IMG/VR virus record: IMGVR_UViG_3300010368_000009
Span: 37,447 to 101,446 of that record
Source: a virus
Reading direction: 5' to 3' (one strand)
DNA: 64,000 nucleotides
The translations under genes and the position numbers were made by a program. Within the stretch, counting starts at the first letter, position 1. Each line of letters starts with the position of its first letter. This document shows positions 3,059 to 40,881 of this stretch, in pieces. The notes under the pieces were generated by a model. It ran no database searches, had not been told where the DNA came from, and saw nothing but the letters and a program-made list of their open reading frames with translations.

Positions 3059-3205
3059 TAAGACGAGTAAATGAAATGACAAAGGGATAATATACAGTTG
3101 CGTCTACCAATTCCGCCACTCCCCGTTAGATTGGTCGGGGAGACAGGACTTGAACCTGTAATACTCACTGTTCCTTAGATAACCCTAAATCTCCGACACG
3201 TCTTA
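3059..3205 (-). ncRNA. Y RNA-like unit 3 (YrlA-type) with permuted Leu-like tRNA domain
   Basis: Ro stem GUGU[C]GGA/UUUACUC; T-arm ACAGG-UUCAAGU-CCUGU; acceptor CUCCCCG-ACCAAUCUAA-CGGGGAG; D-arm GCGGAAUUGGUAGACGC. Confidence 0.85.
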
Positions 3206-3314: not shown

Positions 3315-3382
3315 ACTGCGAGCAAATTGTTTGAAATGGGGGTTCATCGTTGCAAGATAACCCACTTCATCCGGCCCGCAGT
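3315..3382 (-). ncRNA. Y RNA-like unit 5 (minimal, 68 nt)
   Basis: ACUGCGGGC[C]GGAUGAAGUGGGUUAUC...CCCAUUUCAAACAAUUUGCUCGCAGU; near-paralog of unit 4. Confidence 0.82.
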
Positions 3383-3400
3383 CTTATTGCGATGTGGATA

Positions 3401-27312: not shown

Positions 27313-30300
27313 ATGCATCGTATTGACAGTGAAGGCTCAATTAACAATCAATTCTCAGAGGGAAATCCGTCTCTTGGTGTTGAAGGAACAAAGGTTACTG
27401 CTGATTTCTTGAATGCTCTTCAAGAAGAATTAGCATATACAATTGAGTCTGCCGGGTTAACCTTGGAAAAAGGTAACCACTCCCAATTAGCAAATGCTAT
27501 TTTGACCCTCGTGGGTGGTGGTGGATCATTTCCAAATTTAGAAACACGTATTACTCAATTGAATTCTTCATATTTGTATGGTGCCAGAAATATATTCCGT
27601 CAAAATGACGAACCACTTGAAAATGTACAGGGTCCATTCTATGATAATGATATATGGATTGAAACAGATCAAAGCCCTGAACGAGTTTGGGTTTGGAATT
27701 CTATAACAGAAACATGGATTGATACTACTAGTGAAGCAAGCGCCCGTGGTATCTTATCCCAACAGAAGCTTCAGGCAATTTCTGACGGTGTTGTTCAGAT
27801 TTTCATACAAACCGATACACCAACTGGTGCTTCTGAGGGTGATCTTTGGTATAATGATCGTGATGACTTGCTATTCACCTATGATGCAGGTGTATGGTTT
27901 ACTGTATATGATGAGTTTTCGAAACGAGTTATCGTTGACGCGATCATCAGAGAAGCAGCGAACACTGCACAGGGTACAGCCGATTCAAAAATTCTCACCT
28001 ACTATCAAACATCGGCACCGGTCGGATTAACCGCACAGAACGATGGTGATATCTGGTTCGATACCAGTGACTCCAATAAAGTATATCGTTATGCACATCC
28101 TACGTGGATCGCCATTTCTGATCTTCGCATTCAAACCGCCCTAGATTATATTTTCCTTCAAGGAGCAATCGCTGACGGAACTATATTCGTTTATTTTTCT
28201 GCGGATGAACCAACCCAAGCTAACCAAGCTGCACTATCTCCACCAAAACAAGCACCATCCGAGGGTGATGTATGGGTTGATATTACCGATGATGGCGGAA
28301 GTCCAAGAAACGATGTTTACTTGTTCAATAATAATGTTTGGGTTCAACAGACTGATCCAGATTTCATTCGACTGCTTCTAAGTTTTGCGAGTGCTCGTGC
28401 AATTTCTGACGGTGCTGTAACCATTTACTTCAGTCCAACTGCACCAGATGACACATTCATTCCGGCACCGGCCTATGGTGATATTTGGTTTGATACATCT
28501 ACTGTTTCTATACCTGATGTGAATGCCGCTGACCCTGCTACCGCTGCTCAAATCAACGTTACCAAATGGGAACAATATAGATATGACGGAACATCATGGG
28601 TAGTGATTGCTGACTTCAAAGTTAAAATCATTGAAGCCAATCTGAAGAGTGAACAATTCGCACGAACCGCAGAAGACACTGCAATCTCTGGTGAAATCAC
28701 CACGGCGGTAACTCGTATTGGTGAAAATGAAGCAACCGTCCAGCAATCATTAGTATCAATCAACGGTATCGCTGGTGCTTATGGTGTTAGAACGAACGTT
28801 AATAATAAAGTGGTTGGTTTTGGTTTCATCACTGATTATGAACGAGAAATTGAATTCACCAACACCGGTTCGTTGGATTTTAATCCGGGTGATGAAGTCT
28901 TCCTTGGCGTTGACTATGCAAATAAAACCTATGCAGCTGTAATTGTATCGGTTGATAACGTTAATGAAACAATGCGAGTCATTTCGGAATCAGGTACATT
29001 TGCTACTGGTGTCACTTTGGCTTCTCGGTATAGATTGCTGGCGAATGCAACTATCGATGCAGGTACATTAAATCCGACGCCGGGTGATTCTGAATTCGAA
29101 ATCATTGTTGATAAGTTTAAAATCACTGATGGAACATCTTCGTTAACCCCATTCAGTATCAGTGGTGGCGTCGTATATGTTGGTGCTCTCGATACGAGTG
29201 TGCCACAAGTACAATACATTGGTGAGTTTGCATCTGATCCAGCAACGACTTATCCAATCAACTCAATTTACAAAAACACCACCAATGGTAACACGTATGT
29301 TTTGGAATATATCACCGGCACATCCGGTCCAAAACAGTGGGCGATCTTCCTAGAACGCGGTACAAACGCACGCTCGTTGGTCATCACCGCTAATGTTCCG
29401 GGTTATATGTTTGATAGCAATGCGGCATCATCTCCAACAAACCCTACTATAACCTTCAATGTACAATATCAGGGCCAAGCATCAGCAATCACAAGTACAG
29501 ATATTGTTGTTACTGATAAAGATGATAATGTGATTGCAGCAACACTTACGAGTACGGTTACGGATGATACCGTGATTTTTGATGCCGGTGGAACAACTCA
29601 TCGTGGATCATTCAAATTTGATATTGCTTATACAGAATTCGCAGCCAATGAATTTCCAATCACCATCACGGTTGATGATGGAACTCTATCTGACACCATG
29701 TTCGTTCCGAGAATTATTGGATCAACCGCCAAACTGATATCACTTAATCCAGATTCATCGGTCTTTCTTTTCGAGGATGATGTAGCAACTGTTCCAGAAA
29801 ATGCGTCTATCCATTTCCGCATCCAGCACCAATCATTGAGTACAGCACCGACAACATCGGAACTTACAATCGTTGATGATGCGGCAACATCATTCTCTTC
29901 TACCAACTTTACATCAGCTGGTAGTGGTTCGGGTGTATCATCGTTTGAATTATTATGGTCTACCGTTTCAGCCGCAGTTTTCCCAATCACGGTCACGATT
30001 GATGACGAAAGTATCAATGATGTCATCGTGGTTAGAAAACTAATCGGTGGTGTTGATGCCGTTGCAGGTTTCTTAACCAATGAATCTCATCTGGTGCCAG
30101 CTGAAGAAGATGGAACCATTGTGGTGGGTGGCCTTGATGATGCCATTGGTACATTTGATGTGTATCGCGGTATCACTAAGCGTAATACAGATACAGCATA
30201 TACTGTATTATCAACAATAGGTTGTTCAGCCACGATTGATGATACTGCTGGTGGAACTGCTGGTAATTATGCTATCACGGCGATGGCCGCCAATAAAGCA

Positions 30301-33300
30301 AGAGCTGTATTCCAAGCCGTATATGATTCGGTCACCATCACAAAAGTAATGAGCCTGACCAAATCATTAGCAGGGGTGGGTGCAAAAGCGCTTTATCTTT
30401 TCTCAGATGCGCAAACCTTTGAATTCACTGGGGATAATCAAGCGAAAGATGGTGGTGCCGTCATTACCTTGTCCACGATTCGTACTGGTGTTTCGGGAAT
30501 TACTTGGACAGCGGTAAACGAGCTTGATGATCCGGTCGCTTTGTCTGGAACTGGTGACGATACTAGAACCTTACCGATTGGTAACTTTGCTGCATCTGAA
30601 TATGTAACAGTCACGGTTGCTGTAACAATTGATACTGTTGAATATAGTGATAAGATCAGAATTGTTAGACTGGTTGATGGATCGAGTACAATTAATGTAG
30701 TTCTTTCAAATGAATCGCATACTTTTTTTGCTGATGAGAATGGTGTCATCAGTGGTGGAGATTACGATAGTGGAAACTCTTTAATATCGGTGTATCGCGG
30801 CACTGAAGTAATTTTATATCAGGGTGCGGCTGGTAATAACAAATTTAGATTTGGTACGATTACTGCTTCTGCTGGTATCACTATTGATGGTGGCGAAACT
30901 GCACCAACCGTTGGTATTTCCGCCATGACCAATTTGTTTGGTTATATTGATGTACCTGTCATCTATAGAAATAATAATGGTGCCGACACAACATATACTA
31001 AACGTATTTCATATGCTAAATCACGCGAAGGTGAATTGGGAAGAAACCTTCAACTGTATGGTACTGGACAGGTGTTTAGATTTGATGGCGATAATATTGC
31101 AATCAATCCTTCTGACACAATTACGATTACCGCCTTCCGTCAACATCTTGATACAGACCCTGTATTCACTGCTCTAAACGATAGTGCTCAATCGGTAACC
31201 TTGACTGGCACTGGTGATTCAAGAGCATTGAGTATTACTGATTTTGGTACATCCGAATTCGTTAAGGTCACCTGTGTTGCAACATATACTGTCAATGCGG
31301 TTGAAGTAGAAATCACTGATACCTTCTCCATCTATAGAATCAAAGGTGCAATCGCTGGTCTAGTTGTTCTTATGACCAATGAAAACCATACCTTCTTTGC
31401 TGGCCCAGACGGAACAATTGATGCTGGACTGTTCGATGATGGTAATTGTACTGTTCGTGTGTTCCGTGGTTCTGAAGAAATCTCATATGATGTTGGTGGC
31501 GGTCTTAATACTTTCAGTTTCGGAACCATTGTTGCCAGCAATGTTATCAAAGATGTAACAGAGACTGCACCCGAAATTGGTGTTAGTTCAATGTCTGGTG
31601 ATGCTGGTTCTCTTACCGTTCCGGTAATCTATAAAGACCCTACCGGTAATGATGAAACCATAACCCGTGTCATCTCTTATTCCAAGGCCAAGGTTGGTGC
31701 ACAGGCACGTGGGTTGCGCATGTCTGCCACATCACAAATCTTTAGATTTGATGGTGAAGGTGTCGCTCTTAATGGTGCTGATGAAATTACCCTAACCACT
31801 CAGAGAACACTCTTGGGTGACAATCCGACATGGACCGCTATCAATCAGGCTGGTGGTGCCGTGGCTCTGTCATCAGTGGATGCAGATACCAAAAAAGTAA
31901 CGATTGCCAACTTTGGTTCATCTGAATGGGTTAGAGTTTCGGCATCGATCACAACTAGTATCGATGGCAACAGTGTCACGTATCGTGATGAGATAACCAT
32001 TGTAAGATTGAAACGTGGTACTGATGCAATTACTGCATTGATTGAAAATGAATCACACATCTTCCCATCAGATGAAAATGGTGTTGTTTCTGATTACACC
32101 AGTGGTGATACAATAGTTCGTGTATTCTTGGGTGATACAGAAAAAACATATGGTACTGGTAATGAAGAATTTCGGTTTGGCACTATAACTCCAACGAATG
32201 TAACCAATGCAAATTTAACTGCTCCTGCGATTGGTGTTTCTGCCATGACAGAAGATACTGGTCGTTTGAGATTACCGATTATCTATCGCGATGTGAATGC
32301 TGTTGATAGAACTGTATATAAAGAAATCACATATGTTAAGTCTCGTGCTGGTGTGGCCGCTCGTAATCTAAGATTATTTGCAACCAAATTGGTTTTTGAA
32401 TTTGATAGCGAAGACTCACCGGTCAATGGAAGTGACAGTATTGTATTCACAGCTGTTGCCACCAATGTATCCAATCTTACATTCGCTGCCGAAGATCAAA
32501 ATGAAGTAGCTGTTGCATTAACCGGATCAGGTAACCAACGCACTCTTGCAATAACAGCATTTGATGATGCACAAAGTGTCAGTGTGACCGCGAGTGGAAC
32601 ATCCATGATCGGTGGTGTTTCGGTCGGCTTCAGTGATACAATCACTATTGTGAGACTACGTGAAGGTGCTGGTGGTGTACAGGTTTCATTAACTAATGAA
32701 TCACATACGTTCTATGCAGATGAAGAAAATGCAGTAATCGGAACAGAGTATGCTGGTGGTAATTCAATAATCAAAGTATATGCTGGCACCACCGAAGTAA
32801 ATTATAATGCTAGTGTTGTTCCGGGTACATGGCGTTTAGGTACGGTAACCCCAACCGATGTCACACGCAACGGAGCATTGGCGTTACCAATTATTGGTAT
32901 CTCGGATTTTGTTAAAGCTAGCAACACCGGTATATTATTATTCGAAGTAATTTATACTGACCTTAATAGTGTTGATAGAACTATACAACGTGCCATCACT
33001 TATTCCAAGTCTAAAGCTGGAACCGATGCTCGTGCCCTGAGATTGATAGCCTCTTCTCAATTATTCAACTTCAATACATCCGGTCAACCTGTTGATAATG
33101 CTGATGAAATCACTCTAAACGCGGTTCGTCAATTTATTGATGGTACAGCGGCATGGACTGCTGTGGATGAGGATAGTAATAATCTTTCATTGACTTCTGG
33201 TGCTAATGGTGACGAGAAGATTTTAAGTATTGCCAACTTTGGTTCTGCTAATCAGGCGAATATTTCTGTTAGTGCTGTGGATTCGTTCACGGGTGAAACT

Positions 33301-36300
33301 TTAGTTGATACCTTAACCATTTATAGACTTAATCAGGGTTCCGAGGGTAAAGACGGAGTAACTGTCTTTATTGGAAATGATAATCATTCATTCCCTGCGG
33401 ACGAGGCTGGGTTGGTGGATGATTATTCTACCGCTAATACGACTGTAGTTGTTTATAGTGGTTCTGTTGCAATCAACTATTCGGCAACGAAGGTGAACAA
33501 CACTTTCCGTTTCGGTACAATGACACCAACCAATGTGACTCGTAATGTTGGCTTGGTTGCCCCTATCATTGGTATTTCGGCAATGTCTGATACTGATGGT
33601 TCGCTTACTGTTCCGGTTATCTTTACGGATAATCAAGGATCAGATTTGACCTTCACCAAGATAATTTCTTATACGAAATCACTTGCAGGAACGAATGTAA
33701 GAAATATTAGACTTCGTGCAACATCTTTTACGTTTGAGTTCGACCAGTTCGGTGACCCGATTGATACCAATCAAATCATAACCTTCTCGTCTCTTAGAAT
33801 AAATGTTCCATCAGCAACGTGGACGGCTGTTGATCAAAATGATGATGCTGTTGCATTCACATCATCACCAGATGCTGACACACGAACATTAGACATTGAT
33901 GACATCGGTTCTGCAACCGAGATAACCGTTAGTGTATCATCTACCTATAACGCTATTGATTACATTGACACTATTCGAGTAGTTAGATTGGATCAAGCTC
34001 GTGATTCTATTACCATCGTTGGAACAAATGAAAACCATAGTTTCTTTGCTGATGAAGGTGGTGTTATTTTAGTAGGTGATTATGCAAGTGGTGACTGTAC
34101 TTTCTCAGTTTACCATGGTACTAGACTAATAACATATCAATCAACTGCGGCTGATGATCGTTGGCGCTTCGGTGTCATAACGGCCAACAGTGTTACTAAA
34201 AATGCGGCTTTAACTGGTGGTGCAACTGGTATTACGGCTATGTCGGCAAATGTCGGCAACTTAACAGTACCAATTGTTTATAGAGATAAAAATGGACAAG
34301 ATACTACCTACACAAAAATTATATCTTACACAAAATCAAGAAACGGGCGCGATGCGAGATGGGTACAACTCGCGGCATCGGAACAAGTATTCAGATTTAC
34401 AGGCGACGACTTACCGCTTGATAATGTTCAAACCGTTTCAATCAATGTAGCTGTAAATCTTGTTGATACTGGTGATGTAGTTGTTACTGCTAAAGATGAA
34501 CTAGGCGGTTCGATAACACTGGGTGGTTCTGGTGTTGCGAGAACTATGACGATTTCACAGTTCGGTAATTCCGAATATGCAGTCGTTGAAGCTACAGCAT
34601 CGATAACGGTTCAGGGTCAAGCCCAAGTTATCAAAGACACCATCACGATTGGTCGTGTGCGGAACGGTTCGGGGGTTGTTCAAGCTCTCCTTACCAATGA
34701 ATCACATTCATTCGCAGCAGATGAAGATGGTGTTGTTTCATCGTATGGCGGTGGCGATACAGATGTTCGTGTCTTCCGTGGTTCCGAAGAAATAAACTAT
34801 CAAGCCACTGCTGCTAATAATAAATTCCGGTTTGGAACTTATATAGTTTCGAATGTTACTAGTAATGGTGGTTTGACCAAACCAGCGGTCGGCATTTCTG
34901 CCATGTCTAGCGATTTTGGCACACTGACCATTCCAATTATCTATCGTGATCCGAATGGTGATGATGTAACAATCAATAAAGTTGTTTCATATTCCAAGTC
35001 GCGTGCTGGTAATAAAGCTCGTTTGATGCGACTTTATGGAACAGGGCAAGTATTCAAATTCAATCAGGATGGTAATCCTGTAAATGGTTCTGATACTATT
35101 ACCCTAAATGCCATTTCTACTAATCTCGGCGTTCCAACGTGGACAGCTGTAGATGAGAATTCAGTCAACCGAAACACTTTGCTATTAACTGGTGCGACCG
35201 ATTATCAGAAAATATTAAACATCGCCAATTTCATACCATATGAAACCATTACAGTGACTGCATCAGCGACTCATGACGCTGTAAATTATTCTGATCAATT
35301 CACTGTTTATAAGGTAGATGAAGGTGCCAGTAATATTGTTGTGGCTCTGTCGAACGAAGCTCATATATTTGGTGCTGATGAGGAAGGGGTTGTTTCTGAT
35401 TATGACAGTGGCGATTCGGTAATCCGTGTCTTCCGTGGTGCTACTGAAGTTTCATATAATGCCGGTGGTGCAGATGATAGTTTCTTGGTTAATAATTTTG
35501 TTGCGACCGACACAACACGCGATGGTGCTCTAGCCTTACCAAGTGTCGGTATTTCTGCCATGTCAGAAGATGCTGGTACGCTTTCATTCGACGTTGTTTA
35601 TACTGATTCAGTGGGTTCAACCGGACCAACCCAAACTAAGACTATTTCATATTCCAAAGCTCGTGCTGGTGTTAATGCTAGAGCAATTCGTTTGTTCTCT
35701 TCATCAATGCAATTCAACTTTGATGCTGGTGACAGTCCACTCAACGGCAGTGATTCAATTGCGTTCGATGCTATCAAGTCCTTCTTACCGGGAACGGTCA
35801 CATGGACTGCTAAAGATCAAACAGCCGGTAATATTACATTAACCGGTACTGGTAATAGTCGTGCTTTATCTGTCACCAATTTTGGTTCATCTACATATGT
35901 TGATGTCAAAGCGAGTGTATCGGATACCGTTAATACGATAACCACTGTTTATGAAGATCAAATCCGCGTTGTGAGGGTCCGTGACGGTGCTTCTGGTTCA
36001 ATTGGTGCCGATGCCCTACAAGTGTTCCTGACGAACCCACAGACGGCCTTTGCGTTGGATGGTGATGGCAAAATGGTTGAGAGTTACCTAATAGGTAACA
36101 CCGATGTTGAAGTTTATCTTGGAACAACCGCTGTATCTTATTCGGGAACCACCACAGCCAACACGTGGAGATATGGAACCTTTACGGAAACCAATGTCAA
36201 AAAATATCAATCGTCTGGTACGGTAGGTATTAGTGACATGTTCGCTGATCAGGGTTCTTTGTCTGTTCAAATTATATATAGAACAACCGATGCTCAAGAT

Positions 36301-39300
36301 ATAGTAATCAATAGAACAATCAATTATTCCAAAATTAGATCGGGTGTATCTCAATCTGATTGGTATCTGATTCCAACTAAACAAACGTTTGCGTTCGATG
36401 GTGATGATAATGCTAAAAATGGTTCTGATACGATTACCGCTAATCTTACTCGTTCGGCATCAATCTCGGAACCGGTTTGGACAACCTCGCCTTCTATCAC
36501 ATTATCCGCTGGCACTTCGGTTGATCAAAAAATAATCACTATTGGTAACTTTGGTGCCAATGAGATTGTTGATGTCAAGGCTACATCGAGTGAAGGCAAG
36601 CCGGTATATTCAAACAACTACAATTATGATTTCGATAGTAGTATTTTCGGATGGCAAATTTCTGGTGCCGTTACTCAGACAATTAATAATGGCTGGGCAA
36701 TCACGGTTGATGATTTGGTTAGCACAAATCAATATGTATACAATGATTTACCAGCAGCTGATTATTTTGCGGGTGCTGATTATAGATACATGGCAGTTGA
36801 GATTGAAGTTATTTCATCTAATGGAACCGGTCAGAAGCGTATCTATTGGAGTACAGCGGGTCATAGTTATGCTAGTTCCAACTATACAACAGCTAATATA
36901 CAAGATGCTGACCTATCTATTGTTGGCACTCATACATTAATCTTTGATCTACATAATCCAACCGTTGGTTCCTCAACAGACTTTAGTGGTAATACTATTC
37001 GTGGTATCCGTTTTGATCCATATGGTGCTGATGATGCATCATTCGTTATTAAGCGCATCGGTCTTGCAACAGCCATTACTTATTTTGAAGATAATTTCAC
37101 CATCTCTCGTATCATCGATGGTACAAATAATATTCAGGTCATCGGTTCTAATGAATCACACACATACAAAGCTGATGAAGATGGCGTAATCACGGTTGCG
37201 ATGAATACCGGTAACTGCGTATATACATTGTATCGTGGTTCGAATGTCGTTTCATATTCTGGCACCACGACCAACAACACATGGCGTTGGGGAACCTTCA
37301 CAACCACGTCTGGAACGATCACCGCATCTTATTCCGGCTCGACTGTGACGCCAACTGTACTGGGTGCTGATACAAATACTTTAGACGTTCAGCTTATCTA
37401 TCGTGATCCGAATGGTGTTGATACCACGTTCACTCGTACTCTTTCTTGGACCAAAGCAAGACAGGGTGTTCTCGCAAGAACATTAAAGATCACTGCTTCT
37501 TCGCTCGTGTTTGAATTTGATCAAGACGCGAATGCCAAAAACGGTGCTGATTATATTGATTTCGATGTCAATGTATTGAATCTATCATCGCCTTATACTT
37601 GGACCGCTGTAGATCAGAGTGGATCATCATTAACATTAACCACGGTAGATTCAAATACATCAAGATTAACAATTGCTAACTTCGGTACATCCACTCGCGC
37701 AACGATTACTGCTTCTCGCACGGAGTCGGTTGATGGTTCAAATAAAACTTATACTGATAGTGTAACTGTTGGTCGCATTCAAGATGCTTCTAATAATGTG
37801 GTTGTCATTCCAACTAATGAATCACACACATTCTTCGCTAATGAAGACGGTTATGTTACCGATTATTCTGGTGGAGTCGGCACCTTTGTTGTTTACCGTG
37901 GCTTAAGCTCAATCAGTTATTCAGCAACGCCAACCAATAATAAATGGCGTTATGGCACTATTGTTCCTATTGGTATTTCACATAGTGTTGTTGGTGCCGA
38001 TATCATAACTTCAAACATGACGCTTAGTGAAGCTCGTATCGATGTTCCTGTGATTTACCGGGATGCCAATGGTCAAGATTATACATACAATCAACGGTTA
38101 TCATTTGCTAAAGCAATACAAGGTTTTATCGGTGCTGGTGGTATTTCTATTTTCCAAACCAATCCAACACATGTCTTCACCACTGATCAGGCTGGTGCTC
38201 TTCTACCGGGTATTGCATATTCTGATGGTGATTCAACATTCTCGGTATATGCTGGTGATGAAGAATTAACGCACAGCACTTTCCCTAAGCTGAATTCATT
38301 CACCATTACTAATACTACTCCAAGTAATGTGACCCAGAATGGTGGATTGTCTTTACCAACTATTGGTATATCTGCACTATCTGCCGATTCTGGAAACATC
38401 ACATCTACTATTGTTGCATATCAAGCATCAACCCGCGTTTATAATTTTGGTTTCGAAAAAGGTATTGATGGAACCCAGACAACAACGGGTCCAATTGGGT
38501 GGCTTTACTCTGGTTCGACCAATAACGTTGGATATGTAGCCACCGTTGATTCCAATAGTAATTTCAACTCTACCTTATCATGGGGATCAACAACTAGCAC
38601 TTCACCATTTGGGTCATGTGGTTGGTATAGAGTTGGTAAACGCTTTGGTGTTCAGTCGGTTCCTAGCTTCATCACCATGACCGCGAAGGTTCGTCCTTCT
38701 TCTATGCTTGTACCAGCATCTGTTTCGGTATCAGGTACACAGGTTTATCTAGCTGAAGATGATTGTTATGCTGAAGTCATCTTCCGAGATATAAACAATG
38801 CACAGATTGGATCAACGGTTTATTCAAAATCATTATCACATCAATTGTTTGATCAGGGTGAAGGCGGTCAGTCTTATAATGGTGTGTGGACAACCTTCAC
38901 TTACACCAACTCGTCCGTTCCAGTGGGCACCGAAGCGATTGAAATATATCTTGTTTCGTCTGAAGCTTCTAATTCTGTTCAAACAAATGGGTATCGTGGT
39001 TCCAATTCGGGTGTTCTATTTGATGATTTCCAATTTGCATCAGATGCGGCGATCTATGACATCACTCTTGAACGCGAAATTACACAAACCACTTTATATA
39101 CTCGTTCGAAAACTGGTCAGAATTCAGTACTCTATTACATTCAACCAACCACTGGTACTGCTATTAAGAATGGTGTCGGTTCGTTAACTGGTGAATTACA
39201 TAAAGTTGATGGACCATCTGATGTCAAGGTTACGAGTGGTAATGTCAAACTATATCAAGACGGCGTTTTAATAACCAGTCCAACAAATTATGCTTATAGT

Positions 39301-40881
39301 TTGAATTCAGCTGCAATAACCGGTTCAACTCTTATTGAAGCAAAAGATGGTGCAACTGTTTATGACACTATTTCATTATTAGATGTCAAAGATGCATTGG
39401 GTGGTGGATACATCACTGCTAATAATGGTCTTGTTATGCAGCGGGTTAGTTCCGAGGCGTCAACTGTTACTCCATCAACGTCAACACTGGTTGGAACTTT
39501 CTATAGAGCTGGTGATGCAACTACGCCTTATACTAAATCATGTCGTATAGAAGGACGTGTCAGTGCAGGAGCATTGCAATTACGTTGGGTTGACTTGGGT
39601 GGTTCGTCTGATATCGCTTCGGTCATCACTCGTGACAGTGCGTCTAGTGCAACATCTGGAACTTGGTATACCACAACTTCATTAACGGTCAGCTATACAT
39701 TTAGTGATCCGGTCAGTGGTGGAACTAGTAAGGTTGTAGAAACTGTATATATTATTTCTGCTGGTGTTCGTGGCTCTCGTCAATTTTATGGAACCAATGG
39801 TAGCTGGTCTGATACAGTTGCTGTTGCAACAATTACTGCGGCTGGTCTGGTTCCAGTTCTCGGTGATGTGGTTACTCTTTCTACTACTGGATTTGCCGAA
39901 ACGCGTTTCTATGATGGCGTGAACTGGTCAAGTGTAGCTCAAGTTATCAATGGTAATTTGGTTGTTCAAGGAACAATGGCGGCTGACAGAATAGCTTCTG
40001 GTTTGATTGATACTGCTAATATTCAATTAGGCTCATCCCGTTTCTCTCTTAATGCAGCCACTGAAAATATGATCATTCAGGACGAGAACGGTTATACCCG
40101 TGTTAAAATTGGTGACCTTGGTGCTGGTGCAAGTGCATATGGTATCGAGATTAGAGACAGTGGTGGTAATCTAGTTCTGTCTTCAGGCGGTTTGGCTAGT
40201 AGTTTTGTCACCGGTACATTTGATTGGGATACGTTCCTTGATGGTATACCGGAAGGTGTTACCGGTGCTGCCGCAGCGATGGACGTTAATGGTAACCTAG
40301 CTTGGGGTAATATCAATGGCACTGGTAGACCCGCCGATGATGCTACCTTGTCGAGAGCATTCAGACAAGGTACTGATCCGGTTGTTACTTTTGGAGCTGG
40401 TGGGTTAACTACCGACGACACATGGTTTAATACTGGTAATAATAAACATTATCGTTGGTCTGGTACGGTTTGGCAAGAAATTGGTCATAACATCCTTGAT
40501 ACGTCATTATTCAATGATGATGCTGGTCTTGGGACTACGGCTACATGGGCTTCTGTTTCTGGTTCTGGACGGCCTGCTGATAATGCAACAGTTGGTGCTC
40601 GTGCCGGTGTGAATTTAACCGATCACACGGGCGGTGCAGTCAGTACTCTTGGTTCTTTTGCTAGACTGGTTGGCACTTTAAATATTTCAAATATTACAAC
40701 ATATATCGCTGGTGCCGCTATTGATACCGCCTTGATTCGAGACGCAGCAATTGTCAATGCCAAGATATTTGATCTTGAAGCTAGTAAAATTACTGCCGGA
40801 ACGATTGATGTCAACATAAATATCGGAAGCGCCAACATCAGCCTTGATGGTGTTAACAATAGAATATTGATCAGTGACTAA
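27313..40881 (+). CDS. giant tail fibre / adhesin-like protein (4522 aa)
   Basis: Mu-type fibre N-terminus (MHRID..F.EGNP..GT.VTADFLNALQEEL), GDIWFDT repeats, TipJ-like segment, about 13 tandem ~220-aa repeats; ATAAATA upstream. Confidence 0.85.
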   Translation: MHRIDSEGSINNQFSEGNPSLGVEGTKVTADFLNALQEELAYTIESAGLTLEKGNHSQLANAILTLVGGGGSFPNLETRITQLNSSYLYGARNIFRQNDEPLENVQGPFYDNDIWIETDQSPERVWVWNSITETWIDTTSEASARGILSQQKLQAISDGVVQIFIQTDTPTGASEGDLWYNDRDDLLFTYDAGVWFTVYDEFSKRVIVDAIIREAANTAQGTADSKILTYYQTSAPVGLTAQNDGDIWFDTSDSNKVYRYAHPTWIAISDLRIQTALDYIFLQGAIADGTIFVYFSADEPTQANQAALSPPKQAPSEGDVWVDITDDGGSPRNDVYLFNNNVWVQQTDPDFIRLLLSFASARAISDGAVTIYFSPTAPDDTFIPAPAYGDIWFDTSTVSIPDVNAADPATAAQINVTKWEQYRYDGTSWVVIADFKVKIIEANLKSEQFARTAEDTAISGEITTAVTRIGENEATVQQSLVSINGIAGAYGVRTNVNNKVVGFGFITDYEREIEFTNTGSLDFNPGDEVFLGVDYANKTYAAVIVSVDNVNETMRVISESGTFATGVTLASRYRLLANATIDAGTLNPTPGDSEFEIIVDKFKITDGTSSLTPFSISGGVVYVGALDTSVPQVQYIGEFASDPATTYPINSIYKNTTNGNTYVLEYITGTSGPKQWAIFLERGTNARSLVITANVPGYMFDSNAASSPTNPTITFNVQYQGQASAITSTDIVVTDKDDNVIAATLTSTVTDDTVIFDAGGTTHRGSFKFDIAYTEFAANEFPITITVDDGTLSDTMFVPRIIGSTAKLISLNPDSSVFLFEDDVATVPENASIHFRIQHQSLSTAPTTSELTIVDDAATSFSSTNFTSAGSGSGVSSFELLWSTVSAAVFPITVTIDDESINDVIVVRKLIGGVDAVAGFLTNESHLVPAEEDGTIVVGGLDDAIGTFDVYRGITKRNTDTAYTVLSTIGCSATIDDTAGGTAGNYAITAMAANKARAVFQAVYDSVTITKVMSLTKSLAGVGAKALYLFSDAQTFEFTGDNQAKDGGAVITLSTIRTGVSGITWTAVNELDDPVALSGTGDDTRTLPIGNFAASEYVTVTVAVTIDTVEYSDKIRIVRLVDGSSTINVVLSNESHTFFADENGVISGGDYDSGNSLISVYRGTEVILYQGAAGNNKFRFGTITASAGITIDGGETAPTVGISAMTNLFGYIDVPVIYRNNNGADTTYTKRISYAKSREGELGRNLQLYGTGQVFRFDGDNIAINPSDTITITAFRQHLDTDPVFTALNDSAQSVTLTGTGDSRALSITDFGTSEFVKVTCVATYTVNAVEVEITDTFSIYRIKGAIAGLVVLMTNENHTFFAGPDGTIDAGLFDDGNCTVRVFRGSEEISYDVGGGLNTFSFGTIVASNVIKDVTETAPEIGVSSMSGDAGSLTVPVIYKDPTGNDETITRVISYSKAKVGAQARGLRMSATSQIFRFDGEGVALNGADEITLTTQRTLLGDNPTWTAINQAGGAVALSSVDADTKKVTIANFGSSEWVRVSASITTSIDGNSVTYRDEITIVRLKRGTDAITALIENESHIFPSDENGVVSDYTSGDTIVRVFLGDTEKTYGTGNEEFRFGTITPTNVTNANLTAPAIGVSAMTEDTGRLRLPIIYRDVNAVDRTVYKEITYVKSRAGVAARNLRLFATKLVFEFDSEDSPVNGSDSIVFTAVATNVSNLTFAAEDQNEVAVALTGSGNQRTLAITAFDDAQSVSVTASGTSMIGGVSVGFSDTITIVRLREGAGGVQVSLTNESHTFYADEENAVIGTEYAGGNSIIKVYAGTTEVNYNASVVPGTWRLGTVTPTDVTRNGALALPIIGISDFVKASNTGILLFEVIYTDLNSVDRTIQRAITYSKSKAGTDARALRLIASSQLFNFNTSGQPVDNADEITLNAVRQFIDGTAAWTAVDEDSNNLSLTSGANGDEKILSIANFGSANQANISVSAVDSFTGETLVDTLTIYRLNQGSEGKDGVTVFIGNDNHSFPADEAGLVDDYSTANTTVVVYSGSVAINYSATKVNNTFRFGTMTPTNVTRNVGLVAPIIGISAMSDTDGSLTVPVIFTDNQGSDLTFTKIISYTKSLAGTNVRNIRLRATSFTFEFDQFGDPIDTNQIITFSSLRINVPSATWTAVDQNDDAVAFTSSPDADTRTLDIDDIGSATEITVSVSSTYNAIDYIDTIRVVRLDQARDSITIVGTNENHSFFADEGGVILVGDYASGDCTFSVYHGTRLITYQSTAADDRWRFGVITANSVTKNAALTGGATGITAMSANVGNLTVPIVYRDKNGQDTTYTKIISYTKSRNGRDARWVQLAASEQVFRFTGDDLPLDNVQTVSINVAVNLVDTGDVVVTAKDELGGSITLGGSGVARTMTISQFGNSEYAVVEATASITVQGQAQVIKDTITIGRVRNGSGVVQALLTNESHSFAADEDGVVSSYGGGDTDVRVFRGSEEINYQATAANNKFRFGTYIVSNVTSNGGLTKPAVGISAMSSDFGTLTIPIIYRDPNGDDVTINKVVSYSKSRAGNKARLMRLYGTGQVFKFNQDGNPVNGSDTITLNAISTNLGVPTWTAVDENSVNRNTLLLTGATDYQKILNIANFIPYETITVTASATHDAVNYSDQFTVYKVDEGASNIVVALSNEAHIFGADEEGVVSDYDSGDSVIRVFRGATEVSYNAGGADDSFLVNNFVATDTTRDGALALPSVGISAMSEDAGTLSFDVVYTDSVGSTGPTQTKTISYSKARAGVNARAIRLFSSSMQFNFDAGDSPLNGSDSIAFDAIKSFLPGTVTWTAKDQTAGNITLTGTGNSRALSVTNFGSSTYVDVKASVSDTVNTITTVYEDQIRVVRVRDGASGSIGADALQVFLTNPQTAFALDGDGKMVESYLIGNTDVEVYLGTTAVSYSGTTTANTWRYGTFTETNVKKYQSSGTVGISDMFADQGSLSVQIIYRTTDAQDIVINRTINYSKIRSGVSQSDWYLIPTKQTFAFDGDDNAKNGSDTITANLTRSASISEPVWTTSPSITLSAGTSVDQKIITIGNFGANEIVDVKATSSEGKPVYSNNYNYDFDSSIFGWQISGAVTQTINNGWAITVDDLVSTNQYVYNDLPAADYFAGADYRYMAVEIEVISSNGTGQKRIYWSTAGHSYASSNYTTANIQDADLSIVGTHTLIFDLHNPTVGSSTDFSGNTIRGIRFDPYGADDASFVIKRIGLATAITYFEDNFTISRIIDGTNNIQVIGSNESHTYKADEDGVITVAMNTGNCVYTLYRGSNVVSYSGTTTNNTWRWGTFTTTSGTITASYSGSTVTPTVLGADTNTLDVQLIYRDPNGVDTTFTRTLSWTKARQGVLARTLKITASSLVFEFDQDANAKNGADYIDFDVNVLNLSSPYTWTAVDQSGSSLTLTTVDSNTSRLTIANFGTSTRATITASRTESVDGSNKTYTDSVTVGRIQDASNNVVVIPTNESHTFFANEDGYVTDYSGGVGTFVVYRGLSSISYSATPTNNKWRYGTIVPIGISHSVVGADIITSNMTLSEARIDVPVIYRDANGQDYTYNQRLSFAKAIQGFIGAGGISIFQTNPTHVFTTDQAGALLPGIAYSDGDSTFSVYAGDEELTHSTFPKLNSFTITNTTPSNVTQNGGLSLPTIGISALSADSGNITSTIVAYQASTRVYNFGFEKGIDGTQTTTGPIGWLYSGSTNNVGYVATVDSNSNFNSTLSWGSTTSTSPFGSCGWYRVGKRFGVQSVPSFITMTAKVRPSSMLVPASVSVSGTQVYLAEDDCYAEVIFRDINNAQIGSTVYSKSLSHQLFDQGEGGQSYNGVWTTFTYTNSSVPVGTEAIEIYLVSSEASNSVQTNGYRGSNSGVLFDDFQFASDAAIYDITLEREITQTTLYTRSKTGQNSVLYYIQPTTGTAIKNGVGSLTGELHKVDGPSDVKVTSGNVKLYQDGVLITSPTNYAYSLNSAAITGSTLIEAKDGATVYDTISLLDVKDALGGGYITANNGLVMQRVSSEASTVTPSTSTLVGTFYRAGDATTPYTKSCRIEGRVSAGALQLRWVDLGGSSDIASVITRDSASSATSGTWYTTTSLTVSYTFSDPVSGGTSKVVETVYIISAGVRGSRQFYGTNGSWSDTVAVATITAAGLVPVLGDVVTLSTTGFAETRFYDGVNWSSVAQVINGNLVVQGTMAADRIASGLIDTANIQLGSSRFSLNAATENMIIQDENGYTRVKIGDLGAGASAYGIEIRDSGGNLVLSSGGLASSFVTGTFDWDTFLDGIPEGVTGAAAAMDVNGNLAWGNINGTGRPADDATLSRAFRQGTDPVVTFGAGGLTTDDTWFNTGNNKHYRWSGTVWQEIGHNILDTSLFNDDAGLGTTATWASVSGSGRPADNATVGARAGVNLTDHTGGAVSTLGSFARLVGTLNISNITTYIAGAAIDTALIRDAAIVNAKIFDLEASKITAGTIDVNINIGSANISLDGVNNRILISD
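30060..38430 (+). repeat. about 13 tandem ~220-aa (~660 bp) degenerate repeats in the fibre
   Basis: Recurring NE(S/N/A)H(T/S/I)F.AD..G...VGISAM...(I/V)IY.D...ISYSKSR.G..AR motif. Confidence 0.85.

What the first reader, a model, noticed from the sequence alone, without database searches (positions are those of the whole stretch)
3059..3205. Y RNA with a Leu-type permuted tRNA retaining ACCA inside the closed acceptor loop
Seen: after the T-arm comes CUCCCCG-A-CCA-AUCUAA-CGGGGAG-UGGCGGAAUUGGUAGACGC. This reads as the 3' half of a tRNA with discriminator and CCA, a 6-nt spacer, then a 5' half with a Leu-like D-loop. Inference: the unit may derive from two tandem tRNA genes. RNase P or 3'-trimming could open the loop and expose an A73-CCA end, and bacterial LeuRS does not need the anticodon, so a chargeable two-piece Y RNA (analogous to two-piece tmRNA) is conceivable.
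Basis: partly seen in the sequence, partly recalled or inferred. Interest (0 to 1): 0.75.

Follow-up and report, generated by a model that had tools for sequence, protein, structure and literature searches.

The report
Phage Y RNA with tRNA-Leu module
Next to a phage's Ro60 gene lies a small RNA whose middle is a leucine tRNA turned inside out, still carrying the tRNA's ACCA tail inside a closed hairpin; this is a new flavour of a known RNA class and a concrete candidate for a Y RNA that is cut open into a tRNA-like end.

Summary
On the minus strand, 3205-3059 is unit 3 of five tandem Y RNAs upstream of a phage Ro60 gene. Its core reads T arm, 7-nt acceptor 3' strand, ACCA, 6-nt spacer, complementary acceptor 5' strand, then a D arm identical over 19 nt to the phage's own tRNA-Leu(UAG).

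It is not a one-off. I found a Leu-type subfamily of YrlA-like RNAs beside Ro60 genes in Chloroflexota and Cyanobacteria and in phage-like tRNA clusters. All seven acceptor pairs covary. Many relatives keep the long variable arm of tRNA-Leu. Rfam's YrlA model misses Y3 (15 bits against a cut-off of 69).

NCCA directly after the stem occurs in 6 of 62 stem groups, against about 1 expected. A very divergent jumbo phage keeps the same stem and ACCA but a different spacer.

The ideas are not new. Published work covers YrlA as a permuted tRNA, its origin from dimeric tRNAs, and RNase P cleavage plus CCA addition of M. smegmatis YrlA. New here are the Leu identity and a fully encoded A73-CCA. Cleavage into two pieces is plausible. 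Leucylation is untested.

Earlier notes of this scan describe related tRNA-shaped Y RNAs on other DNA.

The parts
3059..3205 (-). Y RNA unit 3 (147 nt), a Leu-type YrlA-like RNA: the finding
   Evidence: Covariance model R1 scores it 70.9 bits. Rfam YrlA gives only 15.1 bits.
3178..3205 (-). 5' strand of the closing and Ro60-binding helix, ending in GGGUUAUC
   Evidence: Shared with units 1, 2, 4 and 5. Carries a C-G to U-A compensatory change beside the bulged C.
3059..3086 (-). 3' strand of the closing and Ro60-binding helix
3167..3171 (-). ACAGU, equivalent to the 3' strand of a tRNA anticodon stem; pairs with 3094-3098
3160..3166 (-). 7-nt variable region ending in U48. Relatives have a long class-II variable arm here.
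3143..3159 (-). T arm, with loop UUCAAGU
3136..3142 (-). Acceptor 3' strand CUCCCCG
3132..3135 (-). Encoded discriminator A73 plus CCA, the first four loop bases
   Evidence: Conserved in L124.
3126..3131 (-). Spacer AUCUAA. It would serve both as 3' trailer and as 5' leader; the predicted RNase P site is between 3126 and 3125.
   Evidence: The cleavage site is inferred from PMC4201824.
3119..3125 (-). Acceptor 5' strand CGGGGAG (C1-G72 pair)
3100..3118 (-). U8, G9 and a Leu-type D arm, identical over 19 nt to the phage tRNA-Leu(UAG)
3094..3098 (-). ACUGU, equivalent to the 5' strand of a tRNA anticodon stem
3315..3383 (-). Y RNA unit 1 (minimal, no tRNA module)
   Evidence: RF01656 35.6 bits
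3237..3306 (-). Y RNA unit 2 (minimal)
   Evidence: RF01656 31.2 bits
2910..3051 (-). Y RNA unit 4, with a class-I (canonical YrlA-like) module and closed loop GUUCGC without CCA
   Evidence: RF02553 28.4 bits, partial; R1 25.6 bits
2807..2890 (-). Y RNA unit 5
   Evidence: RF01656 31.4 bits
1111..2742 (-). Ro60/Rsr gene (543 aa from the ATG at 2742)
   Evidence: PF25045 vWA_Ro60 3e-62 and TROVE 2e-41; translation

Best explanation
Unit 3 is a genuine Y RNA of the phage's Ro60 locus, of the YrlA class.

Its outer helix docks Ro60. Its inner module is a circularly permuted tRNA-Leu. The first part is the 3' part of one tRNA-Leu: anticodon-stem strand, variable region, T arm, acceptor 3' strand, A73, CCA. 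Then comes a 6-nt intergenic spacer. The last part is the 5' part of the next tRNA-Leu: acceptor 5' strand, D arm, anticodon-stem strand. This is the layout expected if the RNA arose from two tandem tRNA-Leu genes.

It belongs to a Leu-type subfamily, not catalogued in Rfam, that occurs beside Ro60 genes in bacteria and in phage tRNA clusters.

Shown here: the anatomy, the covariation, the family, the linkage to Ro60, and the non-random retention of ACCA.

Inferred: the module has a tRNA-length 7-bp acceptor stem stacked on a 5-bp T stem, an encoded ACCA and an unstructured A/U-rich spacer. RNase P therefore probably cuts 5' of C1, and exonucleases probably trim the 6-nt trailer back to CCA. 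That would give a stable two-piece Y RNA of 74 and 67 nt with a tRNA-like acceptor end, as was found experimentally for M. smegmatis YrlA. The phage's own CCA-adding enzyme could maintain that end. The module then acts as a tRNA mimic tethered to Ro60 and need not be charged.
For: - Ro60 gene directly downstream.
- Five units share the Ro helix, and unit 3 has a compensatory change in it.
- The T, acceptor and D helices are recovered by RNAalifold. The acceptor helix covaries at 7 of 7 pairs, with 0 of 500 shuffles as good.
- The D arm is identical over 19 nt to the phage tRNA-Leu(UAG). Relatives keep a tRNA-Leu-like long variable arm.
- Re-permuted Y3 is called a full cloverleaf by ARAGORN.
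- Leu-type relatives lie beside Ro60 genes of 31-52% identity.
- NCCA is enriched at the first loop position: 6 of 62 against about 1 expected.
- L124, a 277-kb phage record, shares nothing with this contig at protein level over an 11-kb stretch. It still keeps the same acceptor stem plus ACCA, while the spacer differs. It also has a second Y RNA with UCCA.
- Tandem tRNA-Leu pairs with the ancestral layout exist.
- M. smegmatis YrlA, which has a 7-bp acceptor stem, is cut by RNase P in vivo and in vitro and receives CCA (PMC4201824; 10.1101/312249).
- The two predicted halves co-fold at -42.7 kcal/mol, against -28.5 for the two folded separately.
- The phage encodes a CCA-adding-type nucleotidyltransferase.
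Against: - There is no transcript, end-mapping or binding data for this RNA.
- Most family members lack CCA and close the stem with GNRA or UUCG tetraloops or with extended stems. A free end is therefore not needed for the family's core function.
- S. Typhimurium YrlA and D. radiodurans Yrn1 are not cleaved.
- The context is not the RNase P optimum: C1-G72 with A at position -1, whereas bacterial RNase P prefers G+1 and U-1 (my own knowledge). Only 6 nt link A76 to C1.
- Single-sequence folding is not significantly better than shuffles (z = -1.3).
- The exact bacterial GNCGAA motif of the Ro-binding strand is not matched; Y3 has GUCGGAG.
- The ACCA enrichment is moderate and rests on about 60 groups, some of them related to each other.
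Confidence: 0.5

Rival explanations
1. It is the same Leu-type Y RNA, but the acceptor loop stays closed in vivo, as in S. Typhimurium YrlA. The ACCA would then be a slowly decaying relic of the tandem tRNA-Leu ancestor, or a single-stranded contact motif read in the closed loop. The RNA would work as a one-piece tRNA mimic on Ro60.
For: - Most relatives have no CCA and have stable closed loops.
- Salmonella and Deinococcus Y RNAs are not cleaved, and the authors expect most YrlA RNAs to be poor RNase P substrates.
- C1 and A(-1) are suboptimal for RNase P, and the leader-plus-trailer is only 6 nt (sequence).
Against: - Loops evolve fast where they are unconstrained. Near-identical Anaerolineae RNAs differ in every loop.
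- ACCA nevertheless persists in phage, cyanobacterial, Chloroflexota and Bacteriovoracaceae-MAG members.
- The ACCA members mostly keep tRNA-length stems (7 bp, some imperfect) and unstructured spacers.
- The one YrlA studied with a 7-bp stem is cleaved.
Confidence: 0.33
2. The loop is opened as in the best explanation, and the exposed A73-CCA end is leucylated by host LeuRS. This would give a charged two-piece Y RNA.
For: All bacterial LeuRS determinants are present by sequence: A73, a regular acceptor helix, U8-A14, A15-U48, and G18G19 facing a UUCAAGU T loop. The anticodon arm is dispensable for charging (PMC2377443). One LeuRS charges tRNA-Leu with a short variable loop (abstract of PMC6614811). 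Chen et al. raised possible aminoacylation for M. smegmatis YrlA.
Against: - There is no experimental hint anywhere.
- It requires cleavage first.
- Ro60 bound about 10 bp below the module could hinder LeuRS.
- Most family members cannot be charged (no CCA), so no shared function would need it.
Confidence: 0.12
3. It is not a working Y RNA: a decaying pair of tandem tRNA-Leu genes (pseudogenes) that happens to lie in the array.
For: Neither ARAGORN nor the Rfam tRNA model calls a tRNA here. The long variable arm is lost. The phage carries many tRNA genes.
Against: - The outer halves of the two supposed tRNAs are replaced by a Ro-binding helix that matches the four neighbours and carries a compensatory change.
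- The same architecture recurs beside Ro60 in many genomes, with covariation.
- The module is 85% conserved in an otherwise unrelated phage.
Confidence: 0.03

Closest known systems
Mycobacterium smegmatis YrlA (Chen et al. 2014, PMC4201824)
   Same: A Y RNA upstream of Ro60 in a multi-Y precursor. It has a permuted tRNA-like module with a 7-bp acceptor stem closed by a loop. It is cleaved by RNase P into halves of about 82 and 65 nt, and the 5' half ends in CCA. The halves predicted here are 74 and 67 nt.
   Different: In M. smegmatis the CA of the CCA tail is added after transcription; here A73-CCA is fully encoded. According to the paper, the D and T arms of YrlA RNAs are nearly invariant (class-I type in Rfam's consensus); here the D arm is tRNA-Leu type. 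Processing was not tested here.
Salmonella Typhimurium YrlA (Rfam RF02553; structure in Wang et al. 2018, bioRxiv 10.1101/312249)
   Same: Ro60-binding stem plus a T arm, closed acceptor stem-loop and D arm that fold as a tRNA-like L. It is described as a circularly permuted tRNA, with a proposed origin from dimeric tRNA transcripts.
   Different: It has a 6-bp acceptor stem, no CCA and is not cleaved. Its D arm is of the GUAGCUCA..GGUAGAGC type. The Rfam model scores Y3 at only 15 bits (cut-off 69).
Tandem tRNA-Leu gene pairs (phage locus L100; cyanobacterial tRNA clusters L165, L166, L171, L170)
   Same: The junction reads T arm, acceptor 3' strand, ACCA, a short A/U spacer (6 nt in L100), complementary acceptor 5' strand, Leu D arm. 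This is the same as the core of Y3.
   Different: These are complete tRNAs on both sides according to ARAGORN. In Y3 the outer halves are replaced by a Ro60-binding helix.
Permuted tRNA genes of red algae and an archaeon (Soma et al. 2007, as cited in 10.1101/312249)
   Same: The gene order is 3' half, then CCA-proximal loop, then 5' half. The acceptor loop is opened by RNase P or RNase Z.
   Different: Those are circularised and spliced into decoding tRNAs. No such ligation machinery or anticodon loop is evident here.
Two-piece tmRNA (permuted ssrA of alpha-proteobacteria and some cyanobacteria; my own knowledge)
   Same: A permuted gene yields two base-paired RNA pieces with a chargeable tRNA-like acceptor end.
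   Different: tmRNA has alanine identity (G3-U70), a tag reading frame and an SmpB partner. None of these is present here, and ARAGORN finds no tmRNA.

Membership tests
YrlA-class Y RNA | Encoded next to a Ro60/Rsr gene | tested here: met
   Ro60 ORF 2742-1111 (-), with TROVE and vWA_Ro60 domains. Y3 lies 317 nt upstream, within a five-unit array.
YrlA-class Y RNA | Terminal helix with the Ro60-binding 5' strand motif (bacterial GNCGAAN0-1G, or metazoan GGUCCGA with a bulged C) | tested here: inconclusive
   Y3 has GUGU[C]GGAG pairing with UUUACUC. This is the same design as its four neighbours and carries a compensatory C-G to U-A change. The exact bacterial motif is missed by one base. Units 1, 2 and 5 score 31-36 bits on the nematode Y-RNA (sbRNA) model RF01656.
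YrlA-class Y RNA | Internal module in the order T arm, closed acceptor stem-loop, D arm | tested here: met
   RNAalifold and pair counts on 21-25 relatives.
YrlA-class Y RNA | Reaches the Rfam RF02553 gathering score, with the canonical nearly invariant D/T sequences | tested here: not met
   15.1 bits against 69. The D arm is of tRNA-Leu type, not GUAGCUCA..GGUAGAGC.
YrlA-class Y RNA | Bound by Ro60 in vivo | not testable with these tools
   Needs immunoprecipitation or a gel-shift assay.
RNase P-processed YrlA (M. smegmatis type) | 7-bp acceptor stem stacked on a 5-bp T stem | tested here: met
   CUCCCCG/CGGGGAG and ACAGG/CCUGU.
RNase P-processed YrlA (M. smegmatis type) | Cleavage at +1 and a CCA 3' end in vivo | not testable with these tools
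   ACCA is encoded. No transcript data are available.
Functional tRNA-Leu | Standard-order cloverleaf with an anticodon loop | tested here: not met
   ARAGORN and Rfam call no tRNA at this site. A cloverleaf appears only after circular re-permutation, with a 62-nt insert in the anticodon loop.
Functional tRNA-Leu | LeuRS identity set: A73, U8-A14, A15-U48, G18-U55, G19-C56, regular acceptor helix | tested here: met
   All are present by sequence. The identity set is taken from PMC2377443.
Functional tRNA-Leu | Long (class II) variable arm | tested here: not met
   Y3 has 7 nt here. Relatives L127, L128, L132, L134, L135 and L139 keep a hairpin at this position.
Two-piece tmRNA | Alanine identity (G3-U70), a tag ORF, and detection as tmRNA | tested here: not met
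   ARAGORN finds no tmRNA. The acceptor has G3-C70.

The most novel reading that the evidence does not exclude
Y3 and the other NCCA-type Y RNAs would be opened by RNase P and leucylated by LeuRS (or charged according to their tRNA flavour). A phage Ro60 particle would then carry a charged, anticodon-less tRNA mimic. Such a particle could serve as a decoy or sensor for host enzymes and defence nucleases that act on tRNA acceptor ends, or could bring Ro60 to the translation machinery.
Probability: 0.12. Interest if true: 0.85.

Novelty: new variant of a known kind. Interest (0 to 1): 0.55.

Why it matters
The function of the tRNA-like domain of bacterial Y RNAs is still unknown. Whether any Y RNA is aminoacylated has been an open suggestion since 2014.

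This RNA and its relatives matter for three reasons.
- They show that YrlA-type modules come in distinct tRNA flavours: Leu here, and Ser-like and Glu-like elsewhere in the same arrays. They are not one invariant mimic.
- They give the clearest sequence-level support so far for the published idea that these RNAs were born from adjacent tRNA genes. The discriminator, CCA and intergenic spacer are still in place, and living tandem tRNA-Leu pairs show the same junction.
- They name a specific enzyme and a specific RNA for a direct test: LeuRS, and a 147-nt RNA with a complete Leu identity set.

If the RNA stays closed and uncharged, the finding is still a useful extension of the family, and it exposes a gap in the Rfam model.

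Tried and rejected
- Rfam at gathering threshold and ARAGORN find nothing at the site. Only permissive Rfam scans gave weak YrlA and sbRNA matches.
- Megablast of the locus against 50,697 phage records gave no match.
- A Ro60-based locus search in viral contigs gave only one distant relative (L001/L002). Its Y RNA has a Glu-type module, not Leu-type.
I replaced it with a pattern anchored on GGUUAUC.
- A search with model R1 over 151 cyanobacterial genomes mostly returned true tRNA clusters. Their tandem tRNA-Leu paralogs mimic the module, and few new Y RNAs appeared. So the filter of at least 6 paired bases does not by itself exclude tandem paralogs. I checked the loci carrying NCCA-type modules with ARAGORN, which called no tRNA over those modules.
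- Three R1 hits in L147 with ACCA turned out to be junctions of real tRNAs and were dropped.
- The Ro60 protein was not found in the 277-kb L124 record, which is 60% complete.
- No RtcB was found in this contig.
- The promoter and terminator scan around the array was uninformative.
- ARAGORN assigns the anticodon AAG (Leu) to the re-permuted RNA. I judged this fragile, because the intron position is free and relatives do not keep such a loop.
- The supplementary alignments of Chen et al. are not held, so I could not check whether Leu-type members were in their set.
- I could not retrieve the M. smegmatis YrlA loop sequence for a direct comparison.

Full report
**1. What is there**

The feature is on the minus strand. 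The window is part of a 101,446-bp linear virus record with 19 tRNA genes. It encodes rIIA/rIIB and baseplate proteins typical of a large myovirus.

Between 3383 and 2807 there is no ORF of 60 aa or more. Five stem-closed RNA units lie head to tail in that stretch, directly upstream of a 543-aa Ro60/Rsr gene (2742-1111). That gene matches vWA_Ro60 at 3e-62 and TROVE at 2e-41.

All five units share a helix of the Y-RNA type. Its 5' strand is CGUGC[C]GGA...GGUUAUC and its 3' strand is ...UUUGCUCG. Units 1, 2 and 5 score 31-36 bits on the nematode Y-RNA (sbRNA) model, and unit 4 matches Rfam YrlA partially. In unit 3 the pair next to the bulged C is U-A instead of C-G, a change on both strands.

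**2. The observation**

The order is:
- AC-stem strand ACAGU
- 7-nt variable region ending in U
- T arm ACAGG/UUCAAGU/CCUGU
- CUCCCCG
- ACCA
- AUCUAA
- CGGGGAG
- UG
- D arm GCGG/AAUUGGUAGA/CGC
- A
- ACUGU

The 19-mer from U8 through the D arm is identical to the phage's own tRNA-Leu(UAG). All the phage tRNA genes I read out (both tRNA-Leu, four tRNA-Ser and the suppressor) encode CCA.

ARAGORN and Rfam call no tRNA at the site. I joined the RNA's ends and opened it after ACCA. ARAGORN then draws a full cloverleaf with a 62-nt insert in the anticodon loop. I treat its anticodon call (AAG, Leu) as fragile.

The cloverleaf-constrained fold is within 2.2 kcal/mol of the minimum free energy. The unconstrained fold is not better than shuffles (z = -1.3), so the support comes from comparison with relatives, not from thermodynamics.

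**3. A family, not a singleton**

I used a pattern that does not constrain the acceptor region: GGUUAUC, then a T loop, then a Leu D arm. It found relatives in three collections:
- viral contigs (L124, L125)
- metagenomes (L126-L140)
- MAGs of Anaerolineae/Aggregatilineales, Cyanobacteria (Trichormus, Xenococcaceae) and a Bacteriovoracaceae MAG

tblastn finds a Ro60 gene of 31-52% identity (one 85-aa fragment, L132, at 66%) in most of these loci.

In an alignment of 21 modules, all 7 acceptor pairs and 3 of the 5 T-stem pairs change on both sides. 98% of cells pair, and no shuffled or slid control comes near.

Many members keep a hairpin of the form GUGUC-loop-GACGU just 5' of the T arm. This is the position and flanking sequence of the long variable arm of bacterial tRNA-Leu (the comparison with E. 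coli tRNA-Leu is from my own knowledge). Y3 has lost this arm.

Rfam's YrlA model gives Y3 15 bits. In the six related loci scanned it reports no match at a Leu-type module; its matches there (31-43 bits) lie elsewhere in the arrays, where I checked at class-I-type modules. Chen et al. describe the YrlA D and T stem-loops as nearly invariant, and the word Leu does not occur in their main text.

Covariance model R1 also picks up neighbouring units in the same arrays. Some have Ser-like D arms (UGGCCGAGUGG...) and some have class-I D arms. L001 and L124 have Glu-like ones. YrlA-type modules therefore come in several tRNA flavours.

**4. Is the ACCA more than chance?**

There are 62 groups of modules with distinct stems and at least 6 paired positions.
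- NCCA sits at the first loop position in 6 groups. About 1 is expected from loop composition (binomial P about 1e-3; 2e-4 by loop shuffling).
- ACCA occurs in 5 groups (P about 4e-5).

NCCA-type modules that overlap no ARAGORN tRNA in the loci I checked are:
- Y3
- L124 Leu-type
- L124 Glu-type (UCCA)
- L127
- L147:3419
- L155
- the cyanobacterial L126/L129/L145 (two modules each)
- L138/L141

Every Leu-type case has A as the discriminator, which is the Leu identity base.

The best control is L124. No tblastx match links its 11-kb locus to this 101-kb contig. The strongest nucleotide match is the 65-nt module at 85% identity; the only others are two tRNA-gene matches. Stem and ACCA are identical (18 of 18), while the spacer differs in length and sequence (AUCUAA against CAUGA).

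By contrast, near-identical Anaerolineae RNAs differ in every loop, so unconstrained loops turn over quickly.

Against a general role: most members have no CCA. They close the stem with GAAA, GCAA or UUCG loops, or with extended stems.

**5. Origin**

The junction of real tandem tRNA-Leu genes has the same anatomy.
- L100 (phage) has tRNA-Leu(UAA)-ACCA-CAUAUA-tRNA-Leu(UAG).
- Cyanobacterial tRNA clusters have tRNA-Leu paralogs with identical acceptor stems, an encoded ACCA and A/U spacers.
- Leu-type Y-like RNAs sit inside tRNA clusters in L147, L135 and L124.

This fits the dimeric-tRNA model attributed to Sim and Wolin 2018 in Wang et al. and refines one detail. In this subfamily the acceptor hairpin is made of the two tRNAs' own acceptor strands plus CCA plus spacer, not of spacer alone.

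**6. Mechanism**

Shown: the anatomy, the conservation and the Ro60 linkage.

Inferred: RNase P cleavage 5' of C1 and trimming to CCA. The grounds are as follows.
- The only YrlA known to have a 7-bp acceptor stem (M. smegmatis) is cut at exactly that site in vivo and by M1 RNA in vitro. Its 5' half is nibbled and given CCA.
- Y3 has the same 7+5-bp stack and already encodes ACCA.
- The predicted halves (74 and 67 nt) co-fold at -42.7 kcal/mol, against -28.5 when folded apart.
- The phage encodes a CCA-adding-type nucleotidyltransferase.

Points against are C1-G72 with A at position -1, the short 6-nt linker, and the lack of any data.

Leucylation is possible on paper. A73 and the tertiary core are the determinants, and the anticodon arm is dispensable. 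It remains pure conjecture.

**7. Verdict**

The reading as a Y RNA with a Leu-type permuted tRNA of tandem-gene origin is supported. Opening by RNase P is plausible, at about even odds. Charging is unlikely but testable.

The concepts are published. The Leu-type subfamily, the encoded A73-CCA and its non-random retention are, as far as I could search, not. The finding is a new variant of a known kind.

Earlier notes of this scan (unchecked AI notes) describe the same array. On other DNA they describe Y RNAs with open tRNA ends and an anticodon-less Leu-type mimic. These make a functional acceptor end less far-fetched, but I did not test them.

Noticed in passing
L024:7466-7745, L063:127-406, L090:5664-5943 (viral contigs): A Leu-type permuted module (loop GCACUAU) is nested inside an outer tRNA-like acceptor, D and T frame. 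It looks like a tRNA whose anticodon arm is replaced by a second, inside-out tRNA. ARAGORN calls no tRNA.
   Followed up: no
L128, L144, L149, L150, L153 (Anaerolineae/Aggregatilineales Ro60 loci): These loci hold arrays of up to about six Y RNAs whose modules have Leu-like, Ser-like (UGGCCGAGUGG...) and class-I D arms. Many acceptor loops end in CAU just before G1, putting U at -1, which RNase P prefers. Several begin with CCA and have no discriminator (CCAAUCAU).
   Followed up: partly
L124:7505-7640 (-) and L124:5905-6015 (-): The 277-kb phage record has three Y RNAs within a dense tRNA cluster: a Glu-type D arm with UCCA plus AAAUCUAU in the loop, a Leu-type with ACCA, and a class-I type with closed loop GGAAAC. 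No Ro60 was found in the record, which is 60% complete.
   Followed up: partly
L147:3376-3535 (-) (Bacteriovoracaceae MAG): A Y-like RNA with a Leu-type module and the loop ACCAAC lies between tRNA-Leu genes in a cluster of class-II tRNAs (Leu, Tyr, Ser). tblastn found no Ro60 in the 8-kb locus.
   Followed up: partly
L107:2255-2534 (viral contig): Tandem tRNA-Leu-like units (acceptor GGAAGCAG/CUGCUUCC, Leu D arm, T arm) carry inserts of about 75 nt between the D and T arms. ARAGORN does not call them.
   Followed up: no
window 3172-3178 (-): The 7 nt 5' of the ACAGU strand read CUAAGGA, an anticodon-loop-like heptamer (C32, U33, AAG, G37, A38). ARAGORN reads it as tRNA-Leu(AAG) after re-permutation. 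CUAAGG also occurs in L124, but at another distance from the T arm, so this may be chance.
   Followed up: partly
G000:C1:28687-29817 (outside the window; locus L188:688-1818): The phage encodes a 376-aa nucleotidyltransferase of the CCA-adding/repair type (PolyA_pol head domain; 233-285 bits to NCBIfam CCA-adding models, below their equivalog cut-offs).
   Followed up: yes
G000:C1:17557-17633 (outside the window): A tRNA with anticodon CUA (amber suppressor; ARAGORN labels it Pyl) is among the phage's 19 tRNAs.
   Followed up: no
window 27313-40881 (+): A single open reading frame of 4,522 aa. I did not examine it.
   Followed up: no
L001:2700-2950: The nearest viral Ro60 relative (46% identity) has two Y RNAs. 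One has a tRNA-Glu-like D arm and the closed loop UAAAA. Rfam finds nothing there even at E up to 1.
   Followed up: partly
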